Source: a virus. From it: a stretch of 25,581 nt of DNA. Within the stretch, counting starts at the first letter, position 1. The number at the start of each line of letters is the position of its first letter. Location: the UHGV virus genome UHGV-0343683; one strand, written 5' to 3'. The notes under the pieces are model-generated. The model worked only from the letters and a program-made list of their open reading frames with translations, made no database searches and was not told the DNA's origin. The position numbers and the translations under genes are program-made. Shown here in pieces: positions 2,523-25,581 of this stretch.

Positions 2523-2542
2523 TGTGGCATTGGGGGGAAGAC

Positions 2543-2722
2543 ATGAATATTCAAGAATCTATAGGCGAACTACCGGAAACATGCCGGGCTGTTATCAAGC
2601 GTAAGGACGGACACATCGTTGGTGTGCGTGTTCTGACCGATGATGAGCGGATTGCCAGCCTGATGGCGTTTCTCGAGTTGGCAGAAATAGCTGGATATAC
2701 TATTACACCCCCTGACGCGTAA
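2543..2722 (+). CDS. small SOS-box-associated protein, 59 aa (putative LexA-regulated regulator or antirepressor-like; function unknown)
   Basis: ATG at 2543 preceded by a G-rich Shine-Dalgarno; about 20 nt downstream of the LexA-box promoter. The track ORF starts at TTG 2522. Confidence 0.55.
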   Translation: MNIQESIGELPETCRAVIKRKDGHIVGVRVLTDDERIASLMAFLELAEIAGYTITPPDA

Positions 2723-2799
2723 AACACGGTATAATATCGGTGCTGGATTGAACACCCGGCACCATTTTCTGAACACTGCCGCGCCACCTGGAGTTAACC

Positions 2800-3396: not shown

Positions 3397-3686
3397 AAAA
3401 AATCGACCTGAGAAAAGCTGCACGCAGTCGCGCTTGTACTGTGCGTATCCCCGGTGTGTGCAATCACAATCCTGAAACCAGCGTACTGGCTCATTATCGT
3501 CTCGCCGGAACGTGCGGCACAGCCATCAAACCTCACGATATGCAGGGCGCTATCGCCTGCAGTGCGTGTCACGATGCCATCGACGGACGTACAAAAACGG
3601 ATTACGAGCACGACTCATTGTTGTTGATGCACGCTGAGGGAGTTTTCAGAACACTGGCTATCTGGCGCGATGAGGAGTTTATCTGA
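3393..3686 (+). CDS. YbcO-like DUF1364 protein (putative zinc-binding nuclease-like)
   Basis: 97 aa; RIPGVCNHNPETSVLAHYR ... CSACHDAIDG resembles the DLP12 YbcO family; start overlaps the upstream stop (ATGA). Confidence 0.65.
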   Translation: MKKIDLRKAARSRACTVRIPGVCNHNPETSVLAHYRLAGTCGTAIKPHDMQGAIACSACHDAIDGRTKTDYEHDSLLLMHAEGVFRTLAIWRDEEFI

Positions 3687-4357
3687 TGAGTAACGAGTAT
3701 TTATTGGAATATACCCGCATAAAACTGCGCGCTGCATTGCGGGATTTGTCTGGTGGTTCTAAGGGGCAACTGGAAGCATTGTGTGAGCACCCACCGGCAG
3801 ACAAAAACGCATACCCACGCAAACATATTCACCGTGTGCAGCTGGAGGACCGGACCGTTGATGCTCTGGTTACGCCAGTTTACGCTCTGGAAAGTTTCAG
3901 CAGACGTCGCCCCGCGCCGCCGATGAGTGATTTTGAATTTGCTGATTCATCCTGGCGGCGTTCTGTGAACTCGCTGGATGCAAGTCAGCAAGCGTGGTTG
4001 CGTTATTGCTACGGTGGTAACCTGGCATTCAAACACCAAACAGCTATTTGTGAGGCTGTCTGGAGTCGCTATAAAGGAAACATCCCCGCGTCAACTCAGA
4101 GAAAAGTAGTTAAGCGCCTGCTTTCGTTGGTGTGGTTGTCCGTGCAGGCGGTCGCAGCAGCAAATAAACGCGAGGATTTTAAGGAGATGGCCGGATCTAC
4201 CCTAGCAGGAATGCTGTCGGTTTCTCGTTCCACCTGGTGCGAAACATACTCCCTGCACTGGGTAGGAATGAAAGAGGCGGTGAGAGCACTTGATGAAGTG
4301 GCACTTCTTGCAACTTTGCATCATTATCAGAACCATTTAGACGACGTTTGCGTATAA
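3686..4357 (+). CDS. putative late-gene antiterminator (Q-like) or hypothetical protein
   Basis: 223 aa; assignment mainly positional (after DUF1367/YbcO, directly before a TATAAT plus intrinsic terminator and the lysis cassette); ATGA overlap with the upstream gene. Sequence family not firmly recognised. Confidence 0.4.
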   Translation: MSNEYLLEYTRIKLRAALRDLSGGSKGQLEALCEHPPADKNAYPRKHIHRVQLEDRTVDALVTPVYALESFSRRRPAPPMSDFEFADSSWRRSVNSLDASQQAWLRYCYGGNLAFKHQTAICEAVWSRYKGNIPASTQRKVVKRLLSLVWLSVQAVAAANKREDFKEMAGSTLAGMLSVSRSTWCETYSLHWVGMKEAVRALDEVALLATLHHYQNHLDDVCV

Positions 4358-4454
4358 TGCTTGCAAAAACGAACAAAATAGGCCATATTTGACGCTAATT
4401 TGGTATGTTGCCAAATTTCTAAGAACCTCGCCACGGCGGGGTTTTGTCGTTTCT
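4353..4454 (+). promoter_or_regulatory. putative late promoter/leader with tR'-like intrinsic terminator
   Basis: Perfect TATAAT at 4353-4358 overlapping the Q-like stop (no good -35); hairpin cctcgcc-ac-ggcgggg at 4426-4441 followed by ttttgtcgtttct, 16 nt before the holin ATG. Confidence 0.4.
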
Positions 4455-4469
4455 GAATCAGGAAAAATC

Positions 4470-4853
4470 ATGTCTGAACCTCTAACCGCTGGCGTTGCTG
4501 CTGGCTCGGCGGGGGTGACGTTTGCTGCGTTATTTCCTGAGGCAACACCTGCAGTGATGATCTGTGCGCTGGCAGGCGCAGCTCTCTATGTGTTGTCGTC
4601 CGGGCAGCATCGATTCTGGAAGCAGGTTATTTTCGCACTCATTTCGTTTGTTGGCGGTGTGTATTGCGCTGAGACAGCGTCAGCCATCATTACCGGTATT
4701 CTGAACGCGGTGCTGAGTCACCTGAACCCTCCCGTAACAGTAAAAGTCTCTCCCGCCATTGGTGCACTGGTTGCATCAGTAATCAGCGTTACATCACTGT
4801 TGCGGATCATGTCACAAGCTCGTTTATGGAAATCAGATAAGGGGATGAAATAA
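4470..4853 (+). CDS. putative holin (multi-pass membrane protein)
   Basis: 127 aa with hydrophobic segments; first gene after the terminator; AGGA upstream of ATG 4470 (track ORF from 4389 reads through the terminator, so 4470 is preferred). Confidence 0.6.
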   Translation: MSEPLTAGVAAGSAGVTFAALFPEATPAVMICALAGAALYVLSSGQHRFWKQVIFALISFVGGVYCAETASAIITGILNAVLSHLNPPVTVKVSPAIGALVASVISVTSLLRIMSQARLWKSDKGMK

Positions 4854-5125
4854 TGACCCTGCACTCTGTCCTCATCAATGCCAATGCAATTATTTGTCTG
4901 ATGTTGGCACTACGGTTGATGTTTTTTCAAAAAACAGGCCGCTATCGTTTTTTCATCTCACTAACTGCTTACCTCGCGATTCTGTCTGCTGCGTGGATAG
5001 CCCTACGAATTTTTTACGGGAAATATACGCAGGTTGATCCCGCAGAGTTCTTTCTCAACCTCACCATCTGTATTGCTGTCTGGCGGGCACGAGGGAATAT
5101 TTCAAAAATAACAGGAGACAGGTAA
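4853..5125 (+). CDS. small membrane protein (second holin or antiholin-like)
   Basis: 90 aa, three hydrophobic stretches; ATG overlaps the upstream stop (TAATG). Confidence 0.5.
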   Translation: MTLHSVLINANAIICLMLALRLMFFQKTGRYRFFISLTAYLAILSAAWIALRIFYGKYTQVDPAEFFLNLTICIAVWRARGNISKITGDR

Positions 5126-5604
5126 TGACGGATCCTAAATGGCTAATCGAGGCTCGAAAAAACCTCGGCATTCGGGAAATGAAAGGGAAGCAACATGCTG
5201 CAGAAATTGTGCAGTACTGGAAAGATATCAAACGCGGCGGCATTAAGGATGACGAAACACCGTGGTGCGCTGCTTTCACCGGGGCAATGCTGGAACGTGC
5301 GGGTATTCGCTCAACGCGTTTTGAGTCTGCGAATTCTTATCTCGATTGGGGTAATGAACTGAAGGAACCCGCCTATGGATGCATTGCTATTCTGTCTCGG
5401 TCTGGCGGTGGTCACGTCGGCTTTGTTGTCGGGAAAAATGCCGCCGGGGATTTAATGATTTTGGGGGGCAACCAGGCAGATGAAGTAAATATCAAAGCTT
5501 TTCCTCGTTCCCGCGTAACAGGCTACCGCTGGCCAGCAGGTCAAACGGATGTTCCACAATCACTTCCATTGGTGAATGCTGAGAAATCTATCTCAGAAGC
5601 GTAG
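5125..5604 (+). CDS. putative endolysin, CHAP/NlpC-P60-like peptidase (TIGR02594-like)
   Basis: 159 aa; candidate catalytic Cys (TPWCAAF) and His (GGGHVGFVVG); coupled start (TAATG) after the membrane proteins. Confidence 0.6.
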   Translation: MTDPKWLIEARKNLGIREMKGKQHAAEIVQYWKDIKRGGIKDDETPWCAAFTGAMLERAGIRSTRFESANSYLDWGNELKEPAYGCIAILSRSGGGHVGFVVGKNAAGDLMILGGNQADEVNIKAFPRSRVTGYRWPAGQTDVPQSLPLVNAEKSISEA

Positions 5605-5611
5605 GTAAAAC

Positions 5612-5806
5612 GTGAAAAAACTTCTCTTAGCTGTCGCGTTCTTCACGCTGGCAGGCTGCACACATTCGACATACACCGAAGCGACTCGCGCTGACGGCAG
5701 CAGTATTAAACACGTGATGATCGCGCCGGGTACGAAGATTACTACTGCGAACGGTGGTTGTATTGATTCAACCGGGGCAGAGGCTTCATGCCTTGGTGGA
5801 AAATAG
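5612..5806 (+). CDS. small lipoprotein (possible lysis accessory or moron)
   Basis: GTG start with AGGT Shine-Dalgarno; signal peptide with lipobox LAGC (MKKLLLAVAFFTLAGC); 64 aa, not proline-rich, no C-terminal TM segment. Confidence 0.5.
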   Translation: MKKLLLAVAFFTLAGCTHSTYTEATRADGSSIKHVMIAPGTKITTANGGCIDSTGAEASCLGGK

Positions 5807-5827
5807 GGTAATTTACTTTAACGAGAG

Positions 5828-5851
5828 GCCGCCTTTTTGTTTTAAGGCGGC
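5828..5851. terminator. hairpin between convergent genes (gccgcctt-tttgtttt-aaggcggc)
   Basis: 8-bp stem with T-rich loop between the lipoprotein gene (+) and the 86-aa gene (-); flanking U-tracts weak. Confidence 0.35.
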
Positions 5852-5865
5852 ACACATTCAACAGA

Positions 5866-6126
5866 TTAAGGTAACTGATTTGACCATTTTGTTGCGCGCC
5901 AGTTGTTCTGAACCATAATCTTCTGAAGTATCTCATCTGAAGGCTCTGCTTCGCCGCTTAGCCATTCTCTTAAAGTTGAACAATTTAGATAAGAGGAGTT
6001 CGCACGATAAAAAGATACGATGGCGTCCTCTGATAACTTCTCAGGAAACTTTTTTGGGTCAGCTTCTTTTAATATTACGCTCATTAAGGCTTCAATTTTT
6101 TCTCTGTTCATTTTTTGCGTTCTCAT
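5866..6126 (-). CDS. hypothetical protein, AT-rich reverse-strand moron
   Basis: 86 aa ORF (start may instead be the ATG at 6111), opposite in orientation to all flanking late genes, visibly more AT-rich than its neighbours; sits where lambdoid phages carry morons (lambda bor position). No Shine-Dalgarno found. Confidence 0.45.
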   Translation of the reverse strand: MRTQKMNREKIEALMSVILKEADPKKFPEKLSEDAIVSFYRANSSYLNCSTLREWLSGEAEPSDEILQKIMVQNNWRATKWSNQLP

Positions 6127-6354
6127 GGTTGTTGTTTTTCTGTAATGATATCAATAAGTTCAAGATATATACATATATGGAAAACTTGTTCGGTAGTCTA
6201 TCGATACAGCACAAAAGGATGGCTCGCTGCCAAAGTGAAAGCTTACGCTGATAATCAGATACACAAAGCTGATGTATGCAAACAAGTACGCCGCGAGGCT
6301 ACAGTTGAGTTTGATGAACCTGATGCGAGCCCCTAATTCCTGTCCTGAAAGGGA

Positions 6355-6479
6355 GATAGCCCCCTGGTCGCGGGTCCTTTCCGAAATCCAAAACACCGAG
6401 GGTCGGTAGACGCGCAAAAACTCGCTCGTTTTTAGTATTTTTTCATTTTGGGTATTTCCGGTTCCGGTGAGGATTTTTA
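6355..6479 (+). other. putative cos region (cosN-like and cosB-like sites)
   Basis: gtcgcgggtcc at 6367-6377 resembles the lambda cosN-proximal CTCGCGGGTTTTCGC as remembered; tttccgg motifs downstream resemble Nu1-binding R sites; lies directly upstream of the small terminase gene. Confidence 0.3.
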
Positions 6480-7046
6480 ATGGCAAGTCAGGCTGAGGTT
6501 GCAGCACATTTACTGCTATCTGATCGTCGTCTGCGCGATCTCGCAAAACTTCCGGGAGCACCAGTCCCACAAGGACGTGGTGATTGGGAGCTAGACGCAT
6601 GGCGCCATTTTTATATTCGTTATCTCCGGAGCAATAGACGCGACACAACTAGTAATGACGAACCGGAAGCGGGGGACAATTCTCCCGAAAAAAATCGCGA
6701 GCAGTGGCTGAAAAATGAGGAACGACAGGAGCGAATCCTGATGGCACGAGTAAAACGCCGCATTCTCGCTAAACGCTACGCGCCAATTGAATTAATTAGC
6801 GTCGCTGTATCTCGCGTCGCCGTTGAATTACGTACCCGCGTCGAGTCGTGGCCACCACGCCTGAAAAAGGTCTGGCCGGAGATGCCGCAAGAGGCGAGCA
6901 GTGTATTACGAGAGGAGCTGGCGATAGCCTTAAATGAGTTGTCAGACATACGAATCGACTTCAGCGATTACGATGTCAGCGATATCGAACGCGATCTCGA
7001 CAGGGTTGAATCCCTTGCGCGTGACGATACCGATGACGGGTGTTGA
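6480..7046 (+). CDS. terminase small subunit (lambda Nu1-like)
   Basis: 188 aa; N-terminal region resembles the lambda Nu1 winged-HTH region; immediately upstream of and overlapping the large terminase gene. Confidence 0.65.
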   Translation: MASQAEVAAHLLLSDRRLRDLAKLPGAPVPQGRGDWELDAWRHFYIRYLRSNRRDTTSNDEPEAGDNSPEKNREQWLKNEERQERILMARVKRRILAKRYAPIELISVAVSRVAVELRTRVESWPPRLKKVWPEMPQEASSVLREELAIALNELSDIRIDFSDYDVSDIERDLDRVESLARDDTDDGC

Positions 7047-8895
7047 GTGGGCTGATAAATATTTTTATCTCCCTGAGGGCTCCAGCCACATCGCTGGGCA
7101 CTGGACGACTCAGCCGGTCCAGGTAGTGATGCTCAATATGATGACGAACGACGCGATAAAAATCGTGTCTGTTCGCAAATCAGCTCGTCTCGGTTATACA
7201 AAAATACTCGTCGCGGCGCTGCTCTATTTCGCTGAGCACAAAAAACGTAGTGCCGTGGTCTATCAGCCTATCGATGACGAATCGGATGGATTTGTCGCCG
7301 ACGAGGTTGACCCCGCTATCGCCGAAATGCCAGTGATTCAGAAAATTTTCCCCGACTGGGATAAAAGCAACGAGCGTAACAATCTCCAGCGTAAAGAAAT
7401 GAGCGGCGCGATTCTTGATTTTCGCGGCGCGAGTGCACCAGGAAATTTCCGGCGACTAACGAAACAGGTTGTCGAGGGTGACGAAGTTGACGGCTGGCCG
7501 CTGGAAGTTGCCAAAAAAGGCAAAGGCGAGGGCTCGCCCATCGAACTGGCGCTCGTTCGAATTAAAGGGGCAGCGTACCCGAAGGCGATTTTTGGTTCGA
7601 CGCCGACCGTTACCGGCAAAAGTCATATCGAAATGCTCGAAGACGCTGCCGATCTGACGTTTCGTTTTTACCTGACATGTCCGCATTGTGGCGAGGAGCA
7701 GGTCCTGGTATTTGGTTTCGACGGTATCGAATACGGCCTCAAATGGGATAACAGCCTGCAGACCAATGAGGCGAAATCGTCGTCCGCGTATTACCAGTGC
7801 TGCCACTGCCCGGAACATTTTTACTATCGCGATCTCGAAAAAATGGAGTTCGGGGGGCGCTGGATAGCCGAGGACTGCACCTGGACCCGAGACGGCATTC
7901 ATTTTTTTGATCATGACGGTGGCGTCGTTCGCGCGCCGAAACACGCTGCGATCGTGATAAACGCCCTGTATTCACTAAACCTCGATGGATGGGGCGAGAT
8001 TGTCAGCGAGTGGCTGAAAGCGAAAGGCGACCCGCTCAAGGAAAAGACGTTTCATAACACGACGCTCGGCGAACTCTGGAGCGACGTGGCCAGCGAGCAG
8101 CTGGAGCACGATATTCTGGTTAATCGCCGGGAAAAATACGCCAGCCAGGTTCCTGACGGTGTTGTTTATATAACCGGCGGCATCGACTCTCAGACGTCCG
8201 GGCGCTACGAGTGTTATGTGTGGGGCTGGGGAGCCGAGGAGGAGTGCTGGCTGATTGATAAAACAATCGTCCTCGGTCGCTACGACGAGGAGGACACGCT
8301 GCAGCGCGTCGACGGAGTGATTCGCAAACAATACCGGCGCAGCGACGGGACCACAATCGGCGTCAGTCGCTGGGCGTGGGATACCGGTGGTATAGATGCG
8401 CAGGTCGTTTATAACCGCTCGCTGAAACTCGGTCCGCTGTGGGTCATTCCAATCAAGGGCGCGAGCTCATACGGCCAGCCGGTCGTAAATATGCCTCGTA
8501 CCCGTAACGCGAATAAAGTGTATTTGTCGTTGATTGGGACAGATACAGCGAAAGACCTGCTCGCAATGCGCCTGCAGCTGGAACCCGACTCCAAATCGGC
8601 GACACCAGGTGCGATTCATTTTCCCAACGACGACGAAATATTCAGCACGACAGAGGCAAAACAGCTCGTCTCCGAGGTTCTGATCCCGAAACTCATTAAC
8701 GGTCGCGTCGTTTATCGTTGGGACAACCAGGGCCGGCGAAATGAGGCGCTCGACTGCTGGGTGTACGGACTGGCAGCGCTGCGTATCAGTAAAATTCGTT
8801 TCCAGCTCAATCTCGAGACGCTCGCTGAGCAACGGAAAAAATCACAAAACAAACTGTCTCTCGAGGAGATGGCCAGAATGCTCGGAGGGAGCTAA
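6973..8895 (+). CDS. terminase large subunit (lambda gpA-like)
   Basis: Strong similarity to lambda gpA along the whole length (VEWAD, CPHCGEEQ, KTFHNTTLGELW, VIPIKGAS, GTDTAKD, NEALDCWVYGLAALRIS). Start uncertain: 6973 best matches the lambda N-terminus; the track uses 6934 and 7033 is also possible. Confidence 0.9.
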   Translation: MSAISNAISTGLNPLRVTIPMTGVEWADKYFYLPEGSSHIAGHWTTQPVQVVMLNMMTNDAIKIVSVRKSARLGYTKILVAALLYFAEHKKRSAVVYQPIDDESDGFVADEVDPAIAEMPVIQKIFPDWDKSNERNNLQRKEMSGAILDFRGASAPGNFRRLTKQVVEGDEVDGWPLEVAKKGKGEGSPIELALVRIKGAAYPKAIFGSTPTVTGKSHIEMLEDAADLTFRFYLTCPHCGEEQVLVFGFDGIEYGLKWDNSLQTNEAKSSSAYYQCCHCPEHFYYRDLEKMEFGGRWIAEDCTWTRDGIHFFDHDGGVVRAPKHAAIVINALYSLNLDGWGEIVSEWLKAKGDPLKEKTFHNTTLGELWSDVASEQLEHDILVNRREKYASQVPDGVVYITGGIDSQTSGRYECYVWGWGAEEECWLIDKTIVLGRYDEEDTLQRVDGVIRKQYRRSDGTTIGVSRWAWDTGGIDAQVVYNRSLKLGPLWVIPIKGASSYGQPVVNMPRTRNANKVYLSLIGTDTAKDLLAMRLQLEPDSKSATPGAIHFPNDDEIFSTTEAKQLVSEVLIPKLINGRVVYRWDNQGRRNEALDCWVYGLAALRISKIRFQLNLETLAEQRKKSQNKLSLEEMARMLGGS

Positions 8896-9128
8896 TGACG
8901 TCGCGCGAGGTTTTAACAGAACGACTGCTGGAAGCGGAAATCGCTCTGCACAAATTATTAACGGGTAAATCGACCGTGTCGCTGTCTCACGGCGATTCAG
9001 CAGGAAATAACCGGAGCTATCAATACTCGCAGGCGAGTATTGAGCAGCTCCGAACGTACATTATCGAGCTGAAATCACAGCTCGGTCTGAGTACGGGACG
9101 CCGTCGGCCCGTGGGAGTTCGATTATGA
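8895..9128 (+). CDS. head-tail joining protein (lambda gpW-like)
   Basis: 77 aa; alignable to lambda gpW (ALHKLLTGK ... QLRTYIIELKSQ ... RRRP); overlaps the stops of the flanking genes. Confidence 0.8.
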   Translation: MTSREVLTERLLEAEIALHKLLTGKSTVSLSHGDSAGNNRSYQYSQASIEQLRTYIIELKSQLGLSTGRRRPVGVRL

Positions 9129-10804
9129 CTGCTCCGCAGCAGCTGCTCGGGCCTGACGGTAAAACGCCACTACGCCGTTACGCGGGGTATAACGGCGGCG
9201 GTCCCGGTTTCGGTGGCCAGCTGATTGACTGGAACGCACCACAGCAGAGCGCCGACGCAGCACTGTTGCCGAATTTTTATCGCGGTAACGCGCGAGCAGA
9301 CGATCTCGTTCGCAATAACGGCGTCGCGTCGAACGCCGTGCAGCTGCACCAGGATCATATCGTCGGCAATCTGTTTAAGTTGAGTTATCGCCCTAACTGG
9401 CGTTACCTCGGCATATCTCGCGAGGACGCCAGGGCGCTGGCGCGTGACGTCGAGGTAGCGTGGACTGAATACGCCGAGGACCCTCACTGCACGATTGATA
9501 TCGAGCGGAAACGGACGTTCACAATGATGATCCGCGAGGGCGTGGCTACTCACGCTTTCAACGGTGAAACCTGCGTACAACCAGTCTGGGAGAGTAGTGC
9601 CGGCAGCGTTTTTCGGACGCGATTCAAAATGGTCTCACCGAAACGGATTCGAAATCCGGGTTACGCAGCTGACACTCAATTTCGCCGCGCCGGTGTTGAT
9701 ATCGATAAAAACGGGGCCGCGGTCGGGTACTGGATAGCCGAGGATACTTACCCTCTCGGCGGAGTCGGTAAATGCCGGCGTATCCCAGCACAGCTCAGCA
9801 GCGGCAGACACGCATTCATCCACATATTCGAGCCGCTCGAGGACGGACAGACCCGCGGGGACAATATTTTTTACAGCGTCATGGAGCGCCTGAAAATGCT
9901 CGACACACTGCAGCAAACACAACTGCAGAGCGCCATTGTGAAGGCGATGTATGCCGCGACAATCGAATCAGAGCTTGTAAACTGAGTTTGTCGCCGGGAT
10001 GCAGGTGGGGAACTTTCACACCACCGAGCTTGATATTTGCGCCGTTGTAGTACGTCACGTAACTCTGAATAAACGAATTCAGCGGGTTCGAGTCGATATC
10101 AGTACCCGCGCCGGCGATATATTCAAACGCCTGCTGGCTGTCGAGCTCTGATTCGATTGTCGCGGCATACATCGCCTTCACAATGGCGCTCTGCAGTTGG
10201 TGGTGTGAAAGTTCCCCACCTGCATCCCGGCGACAAACTCAGTTTACAGACCGCTCAGAATGCTGATGCTGGTTTTAGTTCACTGGAAAAATCACTCCTG
10301 CGTTACGTTGCAGCTGGCGTTGGCGCGTCATACGAAGAACTTAGCCGGGACTACAGCCAGGTCAGTTACTCCAGCGCCCGGGCCAGTGCTAACGTCAGCT
10401 GGCGATTTTTCATGGGGCGTCGACGTTTTATCGCCGCGCGACAGGCGTCGCTGATGTTCTGCTGCTGGTTTGAAGAGGCGCTGGCACGCGGAATTATCAC
10501 CCTGCCACGCTCAGCTGTCCGGTCGTTTTATGAGGCGCGGAACTCCTGGACGAACGCGCTCTGGATCGGCGCTGGTCGCATGGCGATTGATGGGCTGAAA
10601 GAGGTTCAGGAGAGCGCCATGCGCATCACAACTGGCCTCAGCACGTATCAGAACGAACTGGCGCTGCAGGGACAGGATTACGAGGAGGTTATGGAGCAGC
10701 AGGAATACGAAATTCAGCGCCGGCGTGAAATGGGGCTGAGCGAACCGTCATGGTCTGTATCTCACCCCTCAAATACCAACGATAACGGCTGGGGAGGTAA
10801 CTGA
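9125..10804 (+). pseudogene. portal protein (lambda gpB-like), split by an inverted duplication
   Basis: N-terminal 286 aa (9125-9985) end at a stop created at the rearrangement; the C-terminal part (in frame from 10199 to 10804) has no start; the missing middle is encoded antisense at 10026-10143. Confidence 0.85.
9920..10248. repeat. inverted duplication inside the portal gene: a (9920-9975) repeated inverted at 10144-10199; c (10199-10248) repeated inverted at 9976-10025
   Basis: Verified base by base: observed order is a, rc(c), rc(x), rc(a), c where the intact gene would read a-x-c. Confidence 0.9.
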
Positions 10805-12111
10805 TGCCGTGGAACAATTTTCCGCACCTCGCCGCCAGGGCGTTCAATCAACCGCTTTTGCTGGAGCCCACCTACGCGCGGGTATTTTTTTCGGCGCTGA
10901 GCGACCGGTTCGGTACCGGGCGACTGATTGATACAGCGTCTGGAGAGGTAATGAACAGCGACGAAATGAACGCGCTCGCGATGGGGTGGGACAGCAGCGA
11001 GCGAACACGCCAGAAATCGTATCGCGTGGAGCGTGGTATAGCCGTTCTGCCGGTTACCGGGACGCTGGTTCATAAATTGGGTTATATCAACCCAGTTAGC
11101 GGGATGAGCGGTTACAACGGAATCGCAAAACGCCTGCAGCAGGCGATTTCTGATCCCGATGTAAGAGGGGTCCTGCTTGATATTGACTCCCCTGGCGGTG
11201 AAGTCGCCGGCGCGTTTGATACTGCTGATTTAATCGCCCGGGCGCGAGAGCAAAAACCTGTGTGGGCGCTGGCCAGCGATACGGCCTGCAGCGCTGCCTA
11301 TTTGCTGGCGTCAGCGTGTTCGCGCCGGCTGATAACGCAGACAGGCACAGTTGGTTCAATCGGTGTCCTGATGGCTCACCGCTGCGTCGAAAAAGCGCTG
11401 GAGATTGCTGGCGTCGACGTGACGCTGATTTACGCCGGCGCGCACAAAGTTGACGGGAACCCGTATTCCCAGCTGCCAGGCGACGTTCGCGACGAATTCC
11501 AGCTGAGTATTAACAGCACGCGCGAGCAGTTCGCGCAAAAAGTCTCGGATTATACCGGGCTGAAAAAATCCAGGGTGCTGGCCACGGAAGCTGCAGTATT
11601 TATCGGCGCGGACGCGATTAAATCTGGTCTCGCTGATCAACTCGTTAATTACGCGGACGCTATCGCAGTGATGGCCGACGCACTGAAACCAAAAATGGAG
11701 CGCTTTATGTCTGGTACAGAAACCACGGCGGAGACCACGACCACAGAACAAACCGCGACCACGACTACTGTCGCGCAGGTTGAGTTTAACACGGAGCAGA
11801 TTCGCGCGGACGCCGCATCAAGCGAACTGGCGCGTGTGATGGCCATCATCAATTGTCCCGAAGCTGTTGGGCGCGAGGCGCAGGCAAAAGCGCTCGCTGG
11901 CGTCCCCGGGATGACGGTCGGGCAGGCGCAGGTAGTCCTCGCTGCAGCACCTAAAACGGCGCAGGCGCGGACAGAAACGGCGCTCGATACACTAATGAGC
12001 ACTGAATCACCAGCGACTATTCAGGATGCTGGCAGTACTACGGCAACAGGAACAACCGCAAACGTCTCGATGCTGGTTGCTGCAGGGCGTTCAATTTTAG
12101 GGGATGAATAA
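10804..12111 (+). CDS. prohead protease / minor capsid protein C (lambda gpC-like, S49 peptidase family)
   Basis: 435 aa; S49/SppA-like region (GVLLDIDSPGGEVAG, SAAYLLASAC) and Thr-rich linker, like lambda gpC; ATG overlaps the portal stop. Confidence 0.85.
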   Translation: MPWNNFPHLAARAFNQPLLLEPTYARVFFSALSDRFGTGRLIDTASGEVMNSDEMNALAMGWDSSERTRQKSYRVERGIAVLPVTGTLVHKLGYINPVSGMSGYNGIAKRLQQAISDPDVRGVLLDIDSPGGEVAGAFDTADLIARAREQKPVWALASDTACSAAYLLASACSRRLITQTGTVGSIGVLMAHRCVEKALEIAGVDVTLIYAGAHKVDGNPYSQLPGDVRDEFQLSINSTREQFAQKVSDYTGLKKSRVLATEAAVFIGADAIKSGLADQLVNYADAIAVMADALKPKMERFMSGTETTAETTTTEQTATTTTVAQVEFNTEQIRADAASSELARVMAIINCPEAVGREAQAKALAGVPGMTVGQAQVVLAAAPKTAQARTETALDTLMSTESPATIQDAGSTTATGTTANVSMLVAAGRSILGDE

Positions 12112-12440
12112 TGACTACAGAAACGTATAGCCCGGACGATTTTATTCTTGGGCCTGACCTTGTTGTCACGACCGTCGGTCATTTTCAGGGCGGGATCAAC
12201 GTACCCCGGCTGACACCGATTATGCTCGACGCTACTGTCGGGACGTTTAAGGTTTGGGACGGCTCAGTCGGTAAAGCTATTGGCCTCACTGCCACCGCAG
12301 TTAATACTGGCTCCAGTTCTGCAGACTGCTCGTACTATAAATCAGGCTCGTTCCGTTACACGGCGATTAACTGGGGTACGGTTACCGACGTAGCTAAACG
12401 CAAATCAGCATTTGCGGGTACGCCGATCAGCGTCGGCTGA
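12111..12440 (+). CDS. head decoration protein (lambda gpD-like)
   Basis: 109 aa; alignable to lambda gpD (PIMLDATVGTFKVWDG ... YKSGSFRY ... SAFAGTPISV). Confidence 0.8.
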   Translation: MTTETYSPDDFILGPDLVVTTVGHFQGGINVPRLTPIMLDATVGTFKVWDGSVGKAIGLTATAVNTGSSSADCSYYKSGSFRYTAINWGTVTDVAKRKSAFAGTPISVG

Positions 12441-12458
12441 TAGCAAAAAACTCAAAAC

Positions 12459-12483
12459 AAGCCGCCTCCGGGCGGTTTTTTTA
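12459..12483 (+). terminator. intrinsic terminator after the decoration gene
   Basis: Stem gccgcc/ggcggt with loop tccg (12461-12476) followed by a 7-T run (12477-12483). Confidence 0.55.
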
Positions 12484-12498
12484 TAACAGGATATATAA

Positions 12499-13533
12499 AT
12501 GAGCGATTCGTTTACTACGTCAGAACTGATTACCGCGACACAGCAGGTATTTAAGTTCAATCCGTTGTTTTTAAAGCTGTTTTTCCGTGAGACCTACACG
12601 TTTACGAGCGAAGAGGTTTTTCTGGATAAAATCCCGGGAAAAGTGAACATGGCCGTGTACTGCGCGCCGATGATCACCGGCAAAGTTGACCGCACTCGCG
12701 GCTATTCAACGAACCATTTCAAACCGGGTTACACGAAACCCAAGCACACGATCAATCCGAATATGAGCATCAAGCGCGCAGCCGGTGAGCAGATTGGCCA
12801 GCCGGAAACGCCGGTCGAACGTCGTGCAAAAATCATCATGCAGAACCTGCTTGATGAGGAACTGAGCATCAGCCAGCTCGAAGAGTTCCAGGCGGTACAG
12901 GCTGTTCTGTACGGTAAATACACTGTTTCCGGCAGCAATATCGAGACCTATGAGATCGACATGAGCCGCAGCGCGACGAATAACGTCACTCAGTCCGGTT
13001 CGACAGCCTGGTCGACTCAGGACGCGGAAACGTATGACCCGAGCGACGATATTGAATCCTACGCGGACCTCGCCTCCGGTGCGGTTAACGTGATCATCAT
13101 GGATGGTAAAGCCTGGAAGCAGTTGAAGCGTTTTAAAAAATTCTGGACGGCACTGGATACGCGCCGTGGCTCAAACAGCCAGCTCGAGGTCGCGCTGAAA
13201 AACCTGGGCGACGTTGTCAGCTTTAAAGGCTACTACGGCGACACTGCGCTGTTTGTCTACAAAGGGCAATACCTCGACCCGGTAACAGACACTGAAACGC
13301 GTTATATGCCGGATAACACGATGATCCTTGGCAACACAAAAAACCGCGGGCTCCGCACTTATGGCGCAATTCAGGACGAAGACGCGCTGAAAGAGGGTAT
13401 TTCCGAAGCGACGCGCTATCCAAAAGTCTGGACCACTACCGGTGATCCGGCAGTGACGCAAACAATGACGCAATCCGCGCCAGCAATGGTCCTCACGGAC
13501 GCCGACGCGTTCGTTGTCGTAAAAATCGCGTAA
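12499..13533 (+). CDS. major capsid protein (lambda gpE-like)
   Basis: 344 aa; similar to lambda gpE throughout (FKFNPLFLKLFFRE, PGYTKPKH, RRAKIIMQNL, TRRGSNSQLE, LRTYGAIQD, YPKVWTTTGDPA). Confidence 0.9.
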   Translation: MSDSFTTSELITATQQVFKFNPLFLKLFFRETYTFTSEEVFLDKIPGKVNMAVYCAPMITGKVDRTRGYSTNHFKPGYTKPKHTINPNMSIKRAAGEQIGQPETPVERRAKIIMQNLLDEELSISQLEEFQAVQAVLYGKYTVSGSNIETYEIDMSRSATNNVTQSGSTAWSTQDAETYDPSDDIESYADLASGAVNVIIMDGKAWKQLKRFKKFWTALDTRRGSNSQLEVALKNLGDVVSFKGYYGDTALFVYKGQYLDPVTDTETRYMPDNTMILGNTKNRGLRTYGAIQDEDALKEGISEATRYPKVWTTTGDPAVTQTMTQSAPAMVLTDADAFVVVKIA

Positions 13534-13556
13534 GAGTCGAAAGGCTCTTTTTTGTT
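13533..13556 (+). terminator. intrinsic terminator after the major capsid gene
   Basis: Stem agagtc/ggctct with GAAA loop, followed by tttttgtt; starts at the last base of the gpE stop codon. Confidence 0.55.
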
Positions 13557-13567
13557 AAGGAATCAAC

Positions 13568-13987
13568 ATGAGCACAAAAACAGAATTGCTGGCGCGTATT
13601 GACGATCTGAGCGCTCAGCTCGGTCGCGAATTACCGCGCAGCGGGACTATTGCGGAACTGGAATCAATCGTTGCCGGCGCTGAGTCAGAGCTCGATATTC
13701 TGAACGAGCAATCCGGTGACGCGGGAGGCATCGAGATTACAGTGAATACTGCGTCCGGGACCGATAATGAACTCGCTCAATCAATCGCGAGCGCTATCGT
13801 TTCACAGTCACAAGAGCAGGAGCTCGCACCGGCTACGCGCCGCGTCAAGTTGCGTAACACGCTGGACGTTTATCACTACGTGAACGGGCGTCGCGTTCGC
13901 GAGATTGTTGCCGCAGGCCGTGAAATTGTTGTTGATTCACCGGAGGTCGCAGACCTTATCGCAGCTGATCACGTTTACGCTCTATGA
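13568..13987 (+). CDS. DNA packaging protein (lambda gpFI-like)
   Basis: 139 aa; N-terminus MSTKTELLARIDDLSAQLGRELPRSGTIAELE parallels lambda FI; AAGGA Shine-Dalgarno upstream. Confidence 0.65.
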   Translation: MSTKTELLARIDDLSAQLGRELPRSGTIAELESIVAGAESELDILNEQSGDAGGIEITVNTASGTDNELAQSIASAIVSQSQEQELAPATRRVKLRNTLDVYHYVNGRRVREIVAAGREIVVDSPEVADLIAADHVYAL

Positions 13988-14364
13988 GCTACTACGATGA
14001 CCTCCGGGCCGGCGACGAGGAGATGATCCGTGAGTGGGGACGGCCCGTTAAATTACGCGGTAAAACCGACCCCATTATCGCTATTTTCAACGAGCCTTAC
14101 GCGCGCGTTGACGTTCCTCACGCTGGTTTTATTACCGGTACAGTAACGAGCCTGACGGCGCTCTCGGACGACGTCGCTGGCGTTGTTGCGCGTGACGTCG
14201 TCCAGGTTCCAAAGCAGCGCAGCATCGAACCTGACGGCTCTGTTACCTGGTCTGGCTGGACCGATTACGTGGTTAAAGAGCCTCAACCTGATGGCACAGG
14301 GCTCACGAATATTTTTTTAGAGCCTCACACGTCCAGCGAAAACAGCGAGTATTCAAAATACTAA
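13984..14364 (+). CDS. head-tail joining / head completion protein (lambda gpFII-like)
   Basis: 126 aa; position and size match FII, sequence similarity weak; ATGA-coupled to FI. Confidence 0.5.
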   Translation: MSYYDDLRAGDEEMIREWGRPVKLRGKTDPIIAIFNEPYARVDVPHAGFITGTVTSLTALSDDVAGVVARDVVQVPKQRSIEPDGSVTWSGWTDYVVKEPQPDGTGLTNIFLEPHTSSENSEYSKY

Positions 14365-14385
14365 GTGGGACCTCGGTCCCACTTA
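14362..14385. repeat. 24-bp perfect palindrome (taagtgggacc-tc-ggtcccactta) at the head/tail module boundary
   Basis: 11-bp arms with 2-bp spacer, overlapping the FII stop codon and ending 10 nt before the next gene's GTG; no downstream T-tract. Confidence 0.85.
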
Positions 14386-14395
14386 AGGGGGAACC

Positions 14396-15076
14396 GTGGC
14401 CGATTTACGTAGTAACGCGCAGATGTTCGATATCGATGTTTCGGCGCTGGAGCAGCTCAGAGTCGAAATCAGCGCGACGCAACATCAAATGTTAATGGTA
14501 TACAACAGGGCGCTGAACCGAACTGCAAAACATATGCACCGAATTTCAGCAGGAATGATTTTGACTGCACTGGCAGCTAAAAATCATAAGGCCGTAGATA
14601 AACGAATCAAGCCGTTCATTAAGCGCCGTAATTTTACAAAAGAAGGGGCAGGAGACCTGAGCAGCGCCAAGCTCTGGTACGGTCTGAATGATTTCCGGGT
14701 ATCTGAGCTAAAGGGGCGATTACAAAATCCACGGAGGCAAAAACAGCCTCGCGATCTTGAGACCGGCCTGTTTTTGAAAACCAAAAAAGGCGCTAGAGGG
14801 GCAACTTTTACACCCAAAAGTGCAGGGCTGGCGATGATGAGTTGGCCCGATTCATTCGTAGCGAAACGCTACGGTGCGAAAAGTGTCTGGATTCGACTGG
14901 ATCGCGGAGGAATCGAAGAGGCTCGCGTACCTGTGCACGACGCGCTGGAGGATGCTATCGATGATTATATTTTTGAAAACATTGGCCCTGTTTTTATGGG
15001 CTTTTTTGAGAAAGATTTGCGCGGTCGCGTGAAAGGTAATGTCCACGTAGACCCAAAAACAGGTAAACGATTATGA
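14396..15076 (+). CDS. hypothetical structural protein (possible neck or tail completion protein)
   Basis: 226 aa; GTG start with AAGGGGGAA Shine-Dalgarno; inside the late structural operon, coupled to the next gene. Function inferred from position only. Confidence 0.45.
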   Translation: MADLRSNAQMFDIDVSALEQLRVEISATQHQMLMVYNRALNRTAKHMHRISAGMILTALAAKNHKAVDKRIKPFIKRRNFTKEGAGDLSSAKLWYGLNDFRVSELKGRLQNPRRQKQPRDLETGLFLKTKKGARGATFTPKSAGLAMMSWPDSFVAKRYGAKSVWIRLDRGGIEEARVPVHDALEDAIDDYIFENIGPVFMGFFEKDLRGRVKGNVHVDPKTGKRL

Positions 15077-15609
15077 GCGGACTGGATGCATTTGACGAAT
15101 ATCTTGATCGCGTTAAAGGCGCGGTTTTACAAATACCGTTCATCAAAACATTCGGAATTTATCCGGAAATTCCGGCTGGATTTGAAACGCCAGCTCTGTT
15201 CCTGGAAATCAGCAACTGGTCACAGAGTGACGAATCGGTTCCAGGCTCAATTCAGTCAGTCGAGCTGTCGTGTAATTTGTATTTGCTGCGTGAATTTGCA
15301 GCTGATCAGTACGGACTGAAATCGCAGAATGCAGCGCTCTATATGACGAGCTGGATCAATGGGCGAATGTTCGGTCCCGGAACTAAACCGGCAAAATTCA
15401 GCGACGCGGAACCGTGCGACTGGATTAAAAACGGGCAGTCAGTCGGTTCGCATTCAGTTCAGTGCGTGTCGTTCACGCAGGTTGTAGGCGTTGGTCCAGA
15501 TATTTTCGATTATCCCTCACAGGGGACCCTGAAAAATATATACGTCGGAATAGCACCAGATATCGGCGCAGAACATGAGGGCGACTATTATGGCCCAATC
15601 GGACGATGA
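15073..15609 (+). CDS. hypothetical structural protein (possible tail completion protein)
   Basis: 178 aa; ATGA overlap with the upstream gene; directly precedes the baseplate genes. Function inferred from position only. Confidence 0.45.
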   Translation: MSGLDAFDEYLDRVKGAVLQIPFIKTFGIYPEIPAGFETPALFLEISNWSQSDESVPGSIQSVELSCNLYLLREFAADQYGLKSQNAALYMTSWINGRMFGPGTKPAKFSDAEPCDWIKNGQSVGSHSVQCVSFTQVVGVGPDIFDYPSQGTLKNIYVGIAPDIGAEHEGDYYGPIGR

Positions 15610-16492
15610 ATATGCTGCAGCGGAGAACGCGCGCAGGCTGCGTGACGCAGTTAAACGCGGCACGATAGCTGCAGTTAAAATGAATCCTCCACGCTGCCGA
15701 GTCTCATTTGGTGGCGAACACCAGTCAGGCTGGCTGCAGTGGTTTACTCACGCCACCTCAGAACGCGTCGACTGGAGCGCACCATCAGTGGGCGATCCCG
15801 TTACTGTTGTTTCTGAGGGTGGGGATACGCGGAACGGTGTAGTTATGCTCGGGCTGCACATTGACGACAAAGCTCCGCCAAGCAATGACCCCCATGATCA
15901 TGTCACTGCATACTGTGACGGGGCTACGATGACGTATAACACAAAAAATCACACTCTGACATGGCAGGGCGTACCGGACGGCGTGGTAAAAATACTCGGT
16001 GAGTCTGAAATAGAAATATTTGGACGCGCAGATGTTACTATTAATAGCGAAAATGTAGTTAATATCCATGGTGGGAAATTAATTAACGCAGACGCTGATA
16101 TTATTAATGTCACAGCGACAGATACAATTAACGCACATGCTGATTTAGTGAACGTTATAGCAACGAGTTCTGTTAGTGTTACTGCTGCGAACAGAATATC
16201 GCTGACAGCTCAAACAATCAGCGCGTGGGCTCCGGGTGGTATAACACTAGCTGGTCCAACGCATATTACCGAGACATTAGTAGTAGATAAATTAGCGACA
16301 TTCCGTAACGATATTTCTGTCACTGGAGATAACGGTGGAACAGGTAATATCACAACTCGCGGTAGTGTGTTAGCAGGGCAAGAGGTGCAGGACCGACAAG
16401 GCACAATAACTGAAGTCCGCACAACGTATAACGGACACACTCATATATGTCCGGACGGGGAAACTCAACAACCGAACCAACCAATGGCGTAA
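15590..16492 (+). CDS. baseplate spike / assembly protein V (P2 gpV-like) with extended beta-helix C-terminus
   Basis: N-terminus matches P2 gpV (RGTIAAVKMNPPRCRVSFGG ... WLQWFTH ... WSAPSVGDPV); C-terminal repetitive segment and apex-like NGHTH; GAGGG Shine-Dalgarno 8 nt before ATG 15590 (track start 15575). Confidence 0.8.
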   Translation: MAQSDDEYAAAENARRLRDAVKRGTIAAVKMNPPRCRVSFGGEHQSGWLQWFTHATSERVDWSAPSVGDPVTVVSEGGDTRNGVVMLGLHIDDKAPPSNDPHDHVTAYCDGATMTYNTKNHTLTWQGVPDGVVKILGESEIEIFGRADVTINSENVVNIHGGKLINADADIINVTATDTINAHADLVNVIATSSVSVTAANRISLTAQTISAWAPGGITLAGPTHITETLVVDKLATFRNDISVTGDNGGTGNITTRGSVLAGQEVQDRQGTITEVRTTYNGHTHICPDGETQQPNQPMA

Positions 16493-16494
16493 AG

Positions 16495-16836
16495 ATGCTT
16501 GGAATGGACCGTAACACCGGTAAACTTTTATCGGGGACTGATCACATTCGTCAGTCTATCGTTGATATTTTAACGACCCCGCTGGGGACGCGTGTAATGC
16601 TGCCGGAATATGGCAGCAAATTATTTGATCTTGTTGATAATCCCACAGATCCGTCGCTTGCTATGCGAATAATCATGGAAAGCGCTGGCGCAATAGCACG
16701 ATGGGAACCACGCGTCAGAATTGACAGAATAAATGTGTTAGCAGTGGATATCGGGAAAATAACAATATTAATTATCGCAACAGATATCGAAACACAACAG
16801 CGATTAGAGTTTAATAATATGGAGCTGATATTTTGA
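16495..16836 (+). CDS. baseplate wedge protein W (P2 gpW-like, gp25-like)
   Basis: Aligns to P2 gpW (LGMDRNTGK ... IRQSIVDILTTPLGTRVMLPEYGS ... ARWEPRV); ATG 16495 lies just after the gpV stop. Confidence 0.85.
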   Translation: MLGMDRNTGKLLSGTDHIRQSIVDILTTPLGTRVMLPEYGSKLFDLVDNPTDPSLAMRIIMESAGAIARWEPRVRIDRINVLAVDIGKITILIIATDIETQQRLEFNNMELIF

Positions 16837-24834: not shown

Positions 24835-25554
24835 ATGAGTGATTACGTAAATACTGGCGTGGAGGCGTGGAAACCTAATTTTTATATATCTGCTGATAAT
24901 AAAAACATCACGGATAAAATAAGAAAAGGTTTGATCAATATCACGCTGACAGATTACGGCGGCTCCAGTAAACAGACAGACGAACTCCGCGTAGCAATAG
25001 TTTCTGAAACTCTGAAAATTCCGGCCCGCGGAGTAAAAATCAGTATTGGGCTCGGTTTCGGTAATCAGATAATTGATAAAGGGATATACATCGTTGACGG
25101 TGCTAGCAGTGGCGGTGAACCCCGGGTAGTTGATTTCACAGCAAAAGCGGCTCCGATGAACGCAGCAAAAGGATCTCCGACAGTTCAGAGCAAAAAGACT
25201 CGTTCCTGGAGCGACGTCACTGTCAGCGATATCGTTGCGACAATAGCGAGCGATAATGGGCTAAAACCACGCGTATCAAAGCGGTTTGCAGACAATGTTA
25301 TCACGCAACTCGATCAGGTCGGCGAGTCAGATATGCACCTGATGTCGCGGCTCGCAACGAGATTCGATGCGGTGAGTAAACCCGCGGGCGGGTACTGGAT
25401 ATTCCTGCCGCGCGGCGCGGGCGAATCTGTTAGCGGTGCTCCGCTCCAGCACTACACGCTAACTCGTCGTGATAACTCCAACAGGTTTTGTAGCACAACC
25501 GACAAGAGCAAGCACAATCCCACAGGCAAGACCATTTTTAACGACCATGTTTGA
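24835..25554 (+). CDS. tail protein D (P2 gpD-like, late control D family), apparently C-terminally truncated
   Basis: 239 aa versus roughly 390 aa remembered for P2 gpD; strong similarity through RSWSDVTVSDIVATIASDNGL ... ESDMHLMSRLATRFDAVSKPAGGYWIFLPRG, then the last 20 or so residues diverge before the stop. Confidence 0.7.
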   Translation: MSDYVNTGVEAWKPNFYISADNKNITDKIRKGLINITLTDYGGSSKQTDELRVAIVSETLKIPARGVKISIGLGFGNQIIDKGIYIVDGASSGGEPRVVDFTAKAAPMNAAKGSPTVQSKKTRSWSDVTVSDIVATIASDNGLKPRVSKRFADNVITQLDQVGESDMHLMSRLATRFDAVSKPAGGYWIFLPRGAGESVSGAPLQHYTLTRRDNSNRFCSTTDKSKHNPTGKTIFNDHV

Positions 25555-25581
25555 AAACTCCCAATATTAAAAATATGTCAG

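What the first reader, a model, noticed from the sequence alone, without database searches (positions are those of the whole stretch)
9920..10248. Portal gene split by an inverted duplication
The lambda-gpB-like portal reads normally to 9975, then the sequence becomes the reverse complement of downstream portal sequence. Observed order is a (9920-9975), rc(c) (9976-10025), rc(x) (10026-10143), rc(a) (10144-10199), c (10199-10248), where the intact gene would be a-x-c. The 118-bp middle segment x is therefore present only in antisense, and the minus-strand ORF 9879-10181 encodes recognisable portal sequence (AMYAATIESELDSQQAFEYIAGAGTDIDSNPLNSFIQSYVTYYNGANIKLGGVKVPHLHPGDKLSLQ). Replacing the block with a-x-c restores one in-frame portal of about 525 aa. 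This cannot arise from a simple inversion between one repeat pair; it looks like a fold-back or template-switch rearrangement, or an assembly chimera. As assembled the prophage lacks a functional portal, while every other head and tail gene appears intact.
Basis: seen in the sequence. Interest (0 to 1): 0.7.

Follow-up and report, generated by a model that had tools for sequence, protein, structure and literature searches.

The report
Mis-oriented block splitting prophage portal gene
A 224-base piece of an E. coli prophage's portal gene lies backwards between duplicated flanks in this one sequence only, which is most likely a joining error made during sequencing or assembly; the underlying gene is an ordinary, intact lambda-type portal.

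Summary
Window 9976-10199 is the perfect reverse complement of portal nucleotides 796-1019. It lies between a forward copy of its first 56 nt (9920-9975) and a forward copy of its last 50 nt (10199-10248). Topologically this is a 'dupINVdup' (ABC -> A C'B'A' C). Restoring a-x-c gives a 524-aa lambda-gpB-type portal, base-for-base identical to the gene in about 430 complete E. coli genomes (ST131-type prophage). Otherwise the window has no mismatch to those genomes over about 25.4 kb. Neither novel junction occurs in 5,426 complete E. coli genomes, IMG/VR, GTDB representatives, JGI metagenomes or any fetched locus. The junctions are blunt (0 and 1 nt overlap). A third private blunt inversion junction lies at 25480|25481. 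The window's last 101 nt, a standard Illumina read length, are reverse-complemented sequence from 532-633 bp downstream, and they hold the window's only private mismatch. I therefore judge the block most likely (about 0.65) a mis-join of genuine sequence pieces in the wrong orientation, not a property of the phage. A genuine private mutation (about 0.25) cannot be excluded without the reads. Either way it is a singleton in a decaying prophage, so interest is low.

The parts
9125..9985 (+). N-terminal portal fragment as assembled: 286 aa, made of 284 native residues followed by V-N and a stop
   Evidence: ORF list; Pfam PF05136 profile positions 3-246 of 354, E=5e-61; 100% identical to the reference up to 9975
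9920..9975 (+). Segment a, forward copy (portal nt 796-851, codons 266-284). It contains the only long exact block (35 nt, gene nt 799-833) shared with a paralogous lambdoid portal gene in the same genomes
9976..10199 (-). 224-nt block that is the exact reverse complement of portal nt 796-1019: rc(c) 9976-10025, rc(x) 10026-10143, rc(a) 10144-10199. Segment x (codons 284-323) is present only in this orientation
   Evidence: 224/224 identity to the minus strand of the references
9975..9976 (.). Junction J1: end of a joined to the reverse complement of the end of c; 0 nt overlap
   Evidence: absent from all collections searched
10198..10200 (.). Junction J2: reverse complement of the start of a joined to the start of c; 1 nt overlap (G at 10199)
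   Evidence: absent from the complete E. coli genomes, IMG/VR and all fetched loci
10199..10248 (+). Segment c, forward copy (portal nt 970-1019, codons 324-340)
10157..10804 (+). C-terminal portal fragment (open from TTG 10157 or GTG 10205; native portal sequence from 10199 to the stop)
   Evidence: Pfam PF05136 profile positions 276-354, E=1e-22
9879..10181 (-). Minus-strand ORF (100 aa) created by the inverted block; its first ~69 residues are portal codons ~272-340
25481..25581 (-). Terminal 101 nt of the window: reverse complement of reference sequence 532-633 bp downstream of the colinear end (junction J3 at 25480|25481, 0 nt overlap). It holds the window's only private mismatch (C at 25515). 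Same signature as J1 and J2

Best explanation
The block is not a feature of the phage. It is a private mis-join in this one sequence. Genuine portal sequence (a-x-c, 224 nt) was placed in reverse orientation between pieces that overlap it by 56 and 50 nt. This duplicated both overlaps as inverted repeats and left two blunt junctions. The most specific version (inference, from my own knowledge of sequence handling) is that read pairs entered the assembly as fused R1+R2 strings in raw orientation, for example archive spots dumped without splitting. Each such string joins plus-strand sequence to reverse-complemented sequence one insert length away, with no homology at the join. With 101-nt reads, J1, J2 and J3 would correspond to fragments of 269, 275 and 734 bp. 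Shown: the structure; its uniqueness; the blunt junctions; the recurrence of the same junction type at the window's end, with a 101-nt tail and a private mismatch. Inferred: that the cause is handling of the sequence and not a mutation, and which handling step was responsible. On this reading the real prophage carries the ordinary intact portal.
For: (1) Singleton. 60-70-nt probes across J1 and J2 are covered at 80% or more in 0 of 5,426 complete E. coli genomes, although 440 of them hold both halves of the J1 probe separately. J1 was also absent from IMG/VR, the GTDB representatives and the JGI metagenomes, and J2 from IMG/VR. The colinear a|x junction is found in 7 IMG/VR contigs as a positive control. 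The truncated products are not on record among 153 billion gene positions or 15 billion proteins. (2) No divergence. Window 1-9975, the 224-nt block and 10199-25480 match H105 and AR_0081 with 0 mismatches and 0 gaps, so the event has no age. (3) Blunt junctions. The overlaps are 0, 1 and 0 nt. That is typical of random joins (P=0.60) and atypical of polymerase mis-priming: 93.5% of proximal inverted MDA chimeras show at least 2 nt of complementarity (PMC1855051; calculation), and about 85% of short-range replication U-turn inversions in plastids show microhomology (PMC4417113). (4) A second event of the same kind in the same 25.6 kb. J3 at 25480|25481 is also absent from all collections searched. 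It is followed by exactly 101 nt, a standard Illumina read length, that run to the last base of the window. Those 101 nt hold the only base in the window that no complete genome shares (best identity 99.0% in all 433 genomes). The chance that a single private mismatch falls there is 0.004. (5) The region is hard to assemble. Two independent metagenome scaffolds have N-gaps inside x, and segment a contains the only long exact repeat (35 nt) shared with a paralogous portal gene in the same genomes.
Against: No reads are available, so nothing shows directly that the junctions are absent from the DNA. The source of the window is unknown, and I cannot show that the window's end is a contig end; if the window was cut arbitrarily, the 101-nt length is a coincidence. 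A clean two-junction structure that returns to the forward strand and keeps everything downstream colinear is also exactly what a genuine dupINVdup mutation looks like. Under the fused-read model, two independent chimeric reads must both survive assembly within 224 nt, and the implied insert sizes (269, 275 and 734 bp) are uneven. Most assemblers would discard singleton junction k-mers. The block itself carries no sequencing error. A mismatch near a breakpoint can also be produced by error-prone repair synthesis.
Confidence: 0.65

Rival explanations
1. A genuine, very recent mutation in the sequenced isolate. It would be a dupINVdup-type complex rearrangement made in one replication event by two template switches: the nascent strand leaves the template at the end of a, copies the opposite strand from the end of c back to the start of a, then returns at the start of c. 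Alternatively, two pairs of staggered nicks with ~50-nt 5' overhangs were filled in, and the 224-bp fragment was flipped and re-ligated. The portal is then a pseudogene and the prophage cannot build heads.
For: The topology is exactly that of the dupINVdup class of CNV-flanked inversions (PMC5338099). All four breakpoints lie within 224 nt, a distance compatible with events inside one replication fork. Everything outside the block is colinear and in frame. Prophage decay at this locus is real in other samples: an IS inserted at portal nt 960-964 (L003), a nonsense codon 315 (L004), IS1 in the baseplate V gene of H105 and ISEc53 in AR_0081.
Against: There is 0 and 1 nt of junction homology where template switching usually leaves more. 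From established knowledge, E. coli lacks Ku/LigD end joining, so a blunt flip-and-ligate route is very inefficient. The arrangement is a singleton among about 440 complete genomes carrying this prophage and has zero accompanying divergence. A second private blunt inversion junction 15 kb away, with a 101-nt tail, would require a second rare event in the same strain.
Confidence: 0.25
2. An in-vitro amplification chimera. The sample (single cell, virome or low-biomass metagenome) was amplified with phi29 polymerase, and displaced 3' ends re-primed on nearby displaced strands. This gave inverted junctions that became dominant locally and were then assembled.
For: 85% of MDA chimeras are inverted joins, most less than 10 kb apart, with preferred distances around 80 and 250-300 nt (PMC1855051 and PMC9984789). 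The distances here are 168, 174 and 633 nt, and there are three such junctions in 25.6 kb.
Against: Proximal inverted MDA chimeras show at least 2 nt of complementarity in 93.5% of cases, with an overlap peak at 5-8 nt. All three junctions here have 0-1 nt (P about 3e-4 if independent). There is no evidence that the sample was amplified.
Confidence: 0.07
3. A programmed or recombinase-driven invertible segment (Hin/Gin/Cin/Pin-type switch, shufflon, or homologous recombination between pre-existing inverted repeats) that toggles portal expression.
For: None beyond the presence of inverted repeats around an inverted segment.
Against: The inverted repeats are products of the event, not its substrate: the reference gene has single copies of a and c. 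The two repeat pairs are unrelated to each other and interleaved. The content is not conserved (+105 nt). No recombinase is annotated in the corresponding region of the references. 0 of about 440 genomes with this prophage show the other orientation. The 'inverted' state has no reading frame.
Confidence: 0.01

Closest known systems
dupINVdup (inversion flanked by inverted duplications), a subclass of complex structural variants catalogued in human genomes (Collins et al. 2017, PMC5338099)
   Same: Identical topology, ABC -> A C' B' A' C: the middle is inverted, both flanks are duplicated in inverted orientation, and there are two novel junctions.
   Different: The human cases are kilobases to megabases long and were validated in DNA. 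This one is 224 bp, in a bacterial prophage, seen in a single unverified sequence, with blunt junctions.
Tandem inversion duplication (TID) of Salmonella/E. coli (Kugelberg et al. 2010, recalled from memory; cited in PMC4417113)
   Same: A central inverted copy lies between direct copies, and the model involves strand switching. After junction deletions a TID can reduce to a structure like this one.
   Different: TIDs triplicate the selected region, start at short quasi-palindromes and are found under selection for gene dosage. Here nothing is triplicated, x is single-copy, there is no quasi-palindrome at the switch points and no plausible selection.
Inverted chimeras of multiple displacement amplification (Lasken and Stockwell 2007, PMC1855051)
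   Same: Local inverted joins with an intervening deletion, at distances of a few hundred nucleotides, several per tens of kilobases.
   Different: Those junctions nearly always show 2-21 nt of complementarity. The three here show 0-1 nt.
Bacteriophage lambda portal protein gpB (PDB 8k38; Pfam PF05136)
   Same: The restored protein aligns to gpB over residues 6-510 (E=6e-220) and sits in the lambda gene order: terminase, gpW, portal, S49 protease/scaffold, decoration protein, major capsid protein.
   Different: As assembled, the gene is in two fragments and codons 284-323 are present only in antisense.
DNA-invertase switches (Hin, Gin, Cin, Pin)
   Same: An inverted segment bounded by inverted repeats.
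   Different: There are no shared recombination sites, no invertase, the content is not conserved and no second orientation is found in relatives.

Membership tests
Lambda-family portal protein (Pfam PF05136 Phage_portal_2) | One polypeptide matching the profile end to end | tested here: not met
   As assembled there are two fragments covering profile positions 3-246 and 276-354, and the missing part is encoded on the other strand. The restored a-x-c gene does meet it: positions 3-354 of 354, E=8e-91.
Lambda-family portal protein (Pfam PF05136 Phage_portal_2) | Close homology to the solved lambda gpB portal, and the lambda head-gene order | tested here: met
   8k38 chain A, E=6e-220, residues 6-510. 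The gene lies between the gpW gene and the S49 peptidase gene.
dupINVdup complex rearrangement | Middle segment inverted, both flanking segments duplicated in inverted orientation, exactly two novel junctions | tested here: met
   definition in PMC5338099
dupINVdup complex rearrangement | The arrangement exists in the DNA molecule (spanning reads, doubled depth over the duplicated flanks, PCR) | not testable with these tools
   No reads or sample are available. Indirect evidence argues against it: the junctions are private and a similar junction with a 101-nt tail lies at the window's end.
Replicative template switch (FoSTeS/MMBIR, quasi-palindrome switching, U-turn) | Microhomology between the leaving 3' end and the new template at each junction | tested here: not met
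   0 nt at J1, 1 nt at J2 and 0 nt at J3. This is the distribution expected of random joins. It is not an absolute criterion, because a minority of genuine events are blunt.
MDA inverted chimera | Inverted join of segments less than 10 kb apart | tested here: met
   The distances are 168, 174 and 633 nt.
MDA inverted chimera | At least 2 nt of complementarity at the junction (93.5% of proximal inverted chimeras) | tested here: not met
   0, 1 and 0 nt
Site-specific invertible segment (Hin/Gin/Cin/Pin, shufflon) | One pair of cognate inverted recombination sites flanking the segment, with content conserved on inversion | tested here: not met
   There are two unrelated, interleaved repeat pairs that are absent from the ancestral gene, and 105 nt are gained.
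Site-specific invertible segment (Hin/Gin/Cin/Pin, shufflon) | A recombinase gene nearby, and both orientations present among relatives | tested here: not met
   No recombinase is annotated in the corresponding reference region. The inverted form is found in 0 of about 440 genomes.
IS- or transposon-mediated inversion | An element copy and target-site duplications at the junctions | tested here: not met
   Every base of 9920-10248 is portal sequence. There is no foreign DNA at any junction.

The most novel reading that the evidence does not exclude
The arrangement is real: a de novo 224-bp dupINVdup with blunt junctions in an E. coli ST131 prophage, perhaps accompanied by a second event 15 kb away. 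This would mean that a bacterium without classical end joining can make microhomology-independent, multi-breakpoint inverted rearrangements of the kind catalogued in human genomes, here resolved to the base pair.
Probability: 0.2. Interest if true: 0.4.

Novelty: not a real feature. Interest (0 to 1): 0.13.

Why it matters
If it is an artefact, as I judge most likely, the practical lesson is about data hygiene. An annotation pipeline would call this portal a pseudogene and the prophage defective, although about 430 complete genomes carry the identical gene intact. Interleaved perfect inverted repeats, blunt junctions, no divergence and a read-length inverted tail at a sequence end together make a recognisable sign of mis-oriented joins. 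If it is real, it would be a tidy base-pair-resolved bacterial example of a rearrangement class known mainly from human genomes. It would still be a singleton loss-of-function event in a prophage that is already decaying through IS insertions and nonsense mutations in other strains.

Tried and rejected
(1) I looked for the same junctions elsewhere: complete E. coli genomes, the phage collection, IMG/VR, GTDB representatives and JGI metagenomes. There were no hits. The colinear control found 7 contigs. (2) I tried to find the source assembly through exact truncated products. The 286-aa, 215-aa, 100-aa and 97-aa products are not on record. The 199-aa and 130-aa C-terminal fragments are on record, but all 8 contigs carry other lesions: an IS insertion, a nonsense codon, N-gaps or frameshifts. 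(3) I tested whether the breakpoints coincide with repeats shared with paralogous portal genes, which would suggest a graph tangle. The result is only partial: a contains the one 35-nt exact block (gene nt 799-833), the edges do not coincide, and c has none. (4) I considered 'unsafe unitig' errors at coverage gaps (PMC9528984) and rejected them, because they need a shared (k-1)-mer at the join and these joins are blunt. (5) I tested whether the window's first base lies at a repeat boundary, which would support the window being a short-read contig. It does not: the second copy ends about 150 nt earlier and is only 87% identical. (6) I had taken the vB_EcoM records as evidence that the intact prophage makes particles and withdrew this. 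They are PHASTER predictions from draft assemblies. (7) The a|x breakpoint falls at the cut position of a SacI site (GAGCT^C). The other three breakpoints show nothing comparable, so I treat it as chance. (8) A literature search for unsplit or fused read pairs causing misassembly found nothing usable, so that part of the explanation rests on my own knowledge.

Full report
OBSERVATION. The region holds two perfect inverted-repeat pairs, 9920-9975/10144-10199 (56 nt) and 9976-10025/10199-10248 (50 nt), which interleave and share base 10199. Nothing else in the window comes close; the next best inverted repeat is 28 nt at 75%. Chance expectation for such repeats is about 1e-22 or less. Read as a whole, 9976-10199 is a 224-nt block that is the exact reverse complement of a-x-c. 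It is preceded by a second, forward copy of a and followed by a second, forward copy of c, giving U-a-[c' x' a']-c-D. Turning the block round and removing the duplicated flanks gives a 1575-nt ORF with no internal stop.

WHAT THE GENE IS. The restored gene is base-for-base identical to the annotated portal CDS (WP_000126513.1) of E. coli H105 and to that of record ON470624. Its 524-aa product matches Pfam PF05136 end to end (E=8e-91) and the solved lambda portal gpB over residues 6-510 (8k38, E=6e-220). That exact protein is on record on at least 1000 contigs. The gene lies in lambda order, after the terminase and gpW genes and before the S49 protease, decoration and major capsid genes. Contractile-tail genes follow. 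In H105 the complete element is about 43 kb and is integrated beside tRNA-Leu, with integrase, repressor, helicase, Q and lysis genes. The window covers its right-hand 25.5 kb. As assembled, the portal is split into a 286-aa N-terminal fragment (284 native residues followed by V-N and a stop) and a C-terminal fragment. Codons 284-323 are present only in antisense.

COMPARISON WITH RELATIVES. About 440 of 5,426 complete E. coli genomes carry this prophage, many of them recognisably ST131 strains, and about 428 match at 99% identity or more. In all the best matches the portal spans 1575 bp and is colinear. Window 1-9975, the 224-nt block (on the opposite strand) and 10199-25480 match H105 and AR_0081 with no mismatch and no gap. 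The only other differences are an IS1 in H105 and an ISEc53 in AR_0081, both of which the window lacks. An IS-free version exists in ON470624. Probes across J1 and J2 are covered at 80% or more in none of the 5,426 genomes, while 440 genomes hold the two halves of the J1 probe separately. Exact-match scans for J1 found nothing in IMG/VR, the GTDB species representatives or the JGI metagenomes, and a scan for J2 found nothing in IMG/VR. The colinear a|x junction is found in 7 IMG/VR contigs, so the scan can detect this prophage. The truncated products are not on record. Two shorter C-terminal fragments are on record, but all eight contigs carrying them have other lesions: an IS inserted at portal nt 960-964, a nonsense codon 315, scaffold N-gaps or frameshifts. 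The arrangement is therefore a singleton with no divergence around it.

A SECOND EVENT OF THE SAME KIND. The window's last 101 nt (25481-25581) are the reverse complement of reference sequence lying 532-633 bp beyond the colinear end at 25480. This junction, J3, cuts the gene-D-like tail gene. It has no overlap, no recombinase is annotated nearby, and it is absent from all complete genomes, IMG/VR, the GTDB representatives and the JGI metagenomes. These 101 nt hold the only base in the window (C at 25515) that no complete genome shares; all 433 matching genomes are 99.0% identical. The chance that one private mismatch falls in that stretch is 0.004. 101 nt is a standard Illumina read length, and the stretch runs exactly to the window's last base.

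MECHANISM. Topologically the portal event is a dupINVdup, an inversion linking two flanking duplications. That class is attributed in human genomes to replicative template switching or to synchronous repair of several breaks (PMC5338099). Three routes could write it. (i) A genuine double template switch. (ii) A genuine excision with staggered nicks, fill-in, flip and ligation. (iii) A tiling of three overlapping sequence pieces in which the middle one is laid down in the wrong orientation. Junction homology helps to discriminate. The overlaps are 0, 1 and 0 nt, which is what random joins give (P=0.60 for all three being 1 nt or less). Polymerase mis-priming leaves homology: 93.5% of proximal inverted MDA chimeras have at least 2 nt, with a peak at 5-8 nt (PMC1855051 and PMC9984789), and about 85% of short-range U-turn inversions in plastids show microhomology (PMC4417113). 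Blunt in-vivo joining is inefficient in E. coli, which lacks Ku/LigD (established knowledge). Errors that arise in a de Bruijn graph at coverage gaps need a shared (k-1)-mer at the join and so cannot create blunt junctions (PMC9528984). The junction sequence must therefore have come from chimeric input strings or from a step after assembly.

MOST LIKELY EXPLANATION. The simplest single cause for three private, blunt, local, inverted junctions, one of them followed by a read-length tail carrying a single-read-quality error, is that sequence pieces were concatenated in raw orientation. The most specific version is read pairs entering the assembly as fused R1+R2 strings. With 101-nt reads the three junctions imply fragments of 269, 275 and 734 bp. 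This last step is inference from my own knowledge. The literature search for it found nothing usable.

ASSEMBLY DIFFICULTY IN THIS REGION. Two independent metagenome scaffolds have N-gaps inside x. Segment a contains the only long exact block (35 nt) that this gene shares with a paralogous lambdoid portal gene in the same genomes.

WHAT REMAINS OPEN. I have no reads, do not know the source, and cannot show that base 25581 is a contig end. The window's first base is not at a repeat boundary, which neither supports nor contradicts that. A clean, frame-preserving two-junction structure is also what a real dupINVdup looks like. The fused-read model needs two chimeric strings to survive assembly within 224 nt. 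I put the artefact reading at about 0.65 (plus about 0.07 for an amplification chimera), a genuine private mutation at about 0.25, and a programmed inversion at about 0.01. The inverted repeats are products of the event, not its substrate; no recombinase is annotated; the content is not conserved; and no relative has the other orientation.

SIGNIFICANCE. Either way the finding is minor. The portal is an ordinary lambda-type gene that is intact in hundreds of genomes, and the prophage decays by ordinary routes in other strains (IS1, ISEc53, an IS in the portal, a nonsense codon). The records named vB_EcoM-... that carry the colinear gene are PHASTER predictions from draft assemblies, not sequenced virions, so even the intact prophage's ability to make particles is not documented here. 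Mapping the reads or a single PCR would settle the question.

Noticed in passing
window 25480-25581: A third private inversion-type junction. The last 101 nt of the window are the reverse complement of reference sequence 532-633 bp downstream. The join is blunt, the stretch holds the window's only private mismatch (C at 25515), and it cuts the gene-D-like tail gene. It is absent from 5,426 complete E. coli genomes, IMG/VR, the GTDB representatives and the JGI metagenomes.
   Followed up: yes
window ~2509-2516 and ~16181-16189 (empty sites); L002 4017-5901 and L001 ~17585-18352: Insertion polymorphisms in the same prophage. ISEc53, together with a ClbS/DfsB gene, is inserted between early genes in AR_0081-type genomes. 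IS1 is inserted in the baseplate V gene in H105-type genomes. The window has neither, like record ON470624. All 15 best-scoring complete genomes carried one or the other.
   Followed up: partly
L003 162-1817 (Logan ERR9845976), portal nt 960-964: An independent, genuine-looking disruption of the same portal gene. A DDE-transposase IS of about 1.66 kb is inserted 5 nt before the x/c boundary, with a 5-bp duplication.
   Followed up: partly
L004 (ENA ERZ27254725), portal codon 315; L018/L019 (AP022360, AP026518): A 93%-identical variant of the portal has a premature stop in segment x. Two chromosome-level GenBank assemblies have frameshifted copies that are called as several small ORFs.
   Followed up: partly
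L005 661-670 and L006 657-666: Two unrelated metagenome scaffolds have 10-N gaps at the same place inside segment x of this portal, which suggests the spot is a recurrent assembly break point.
   Followed up: no
window 9923-9957 (portal nt 799-833); L009 1235-2836: The only long exact match (35 nt) between this portal and a paralogous lambdoid portal (65% identical overall, opposite chromosomal orientation in SK1144) lies inside segment a, in the conserved LQSAIVKAMYAATIESEL motif.
   Followed up: partly
L001 1288-1320 (about 180-210 nt upstream of window base 1): A 33-nt perfect match to an annotated CRISPR array of E. coli 23CRST027 (NZ_AP045789.1 3326140-3326172), that is, a spacer against this prophage family.
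   Followed up: no
L007 24345-25389 (window ~24835 onwards): In the reference records the P2-gpD-like tail gene is annotated as two separate ORFs (a 774-nt ORF plus a 165-nt 'Gene D protein' fragment). The tail module may therefore already be impaired in all carriers.
   Followed up: no
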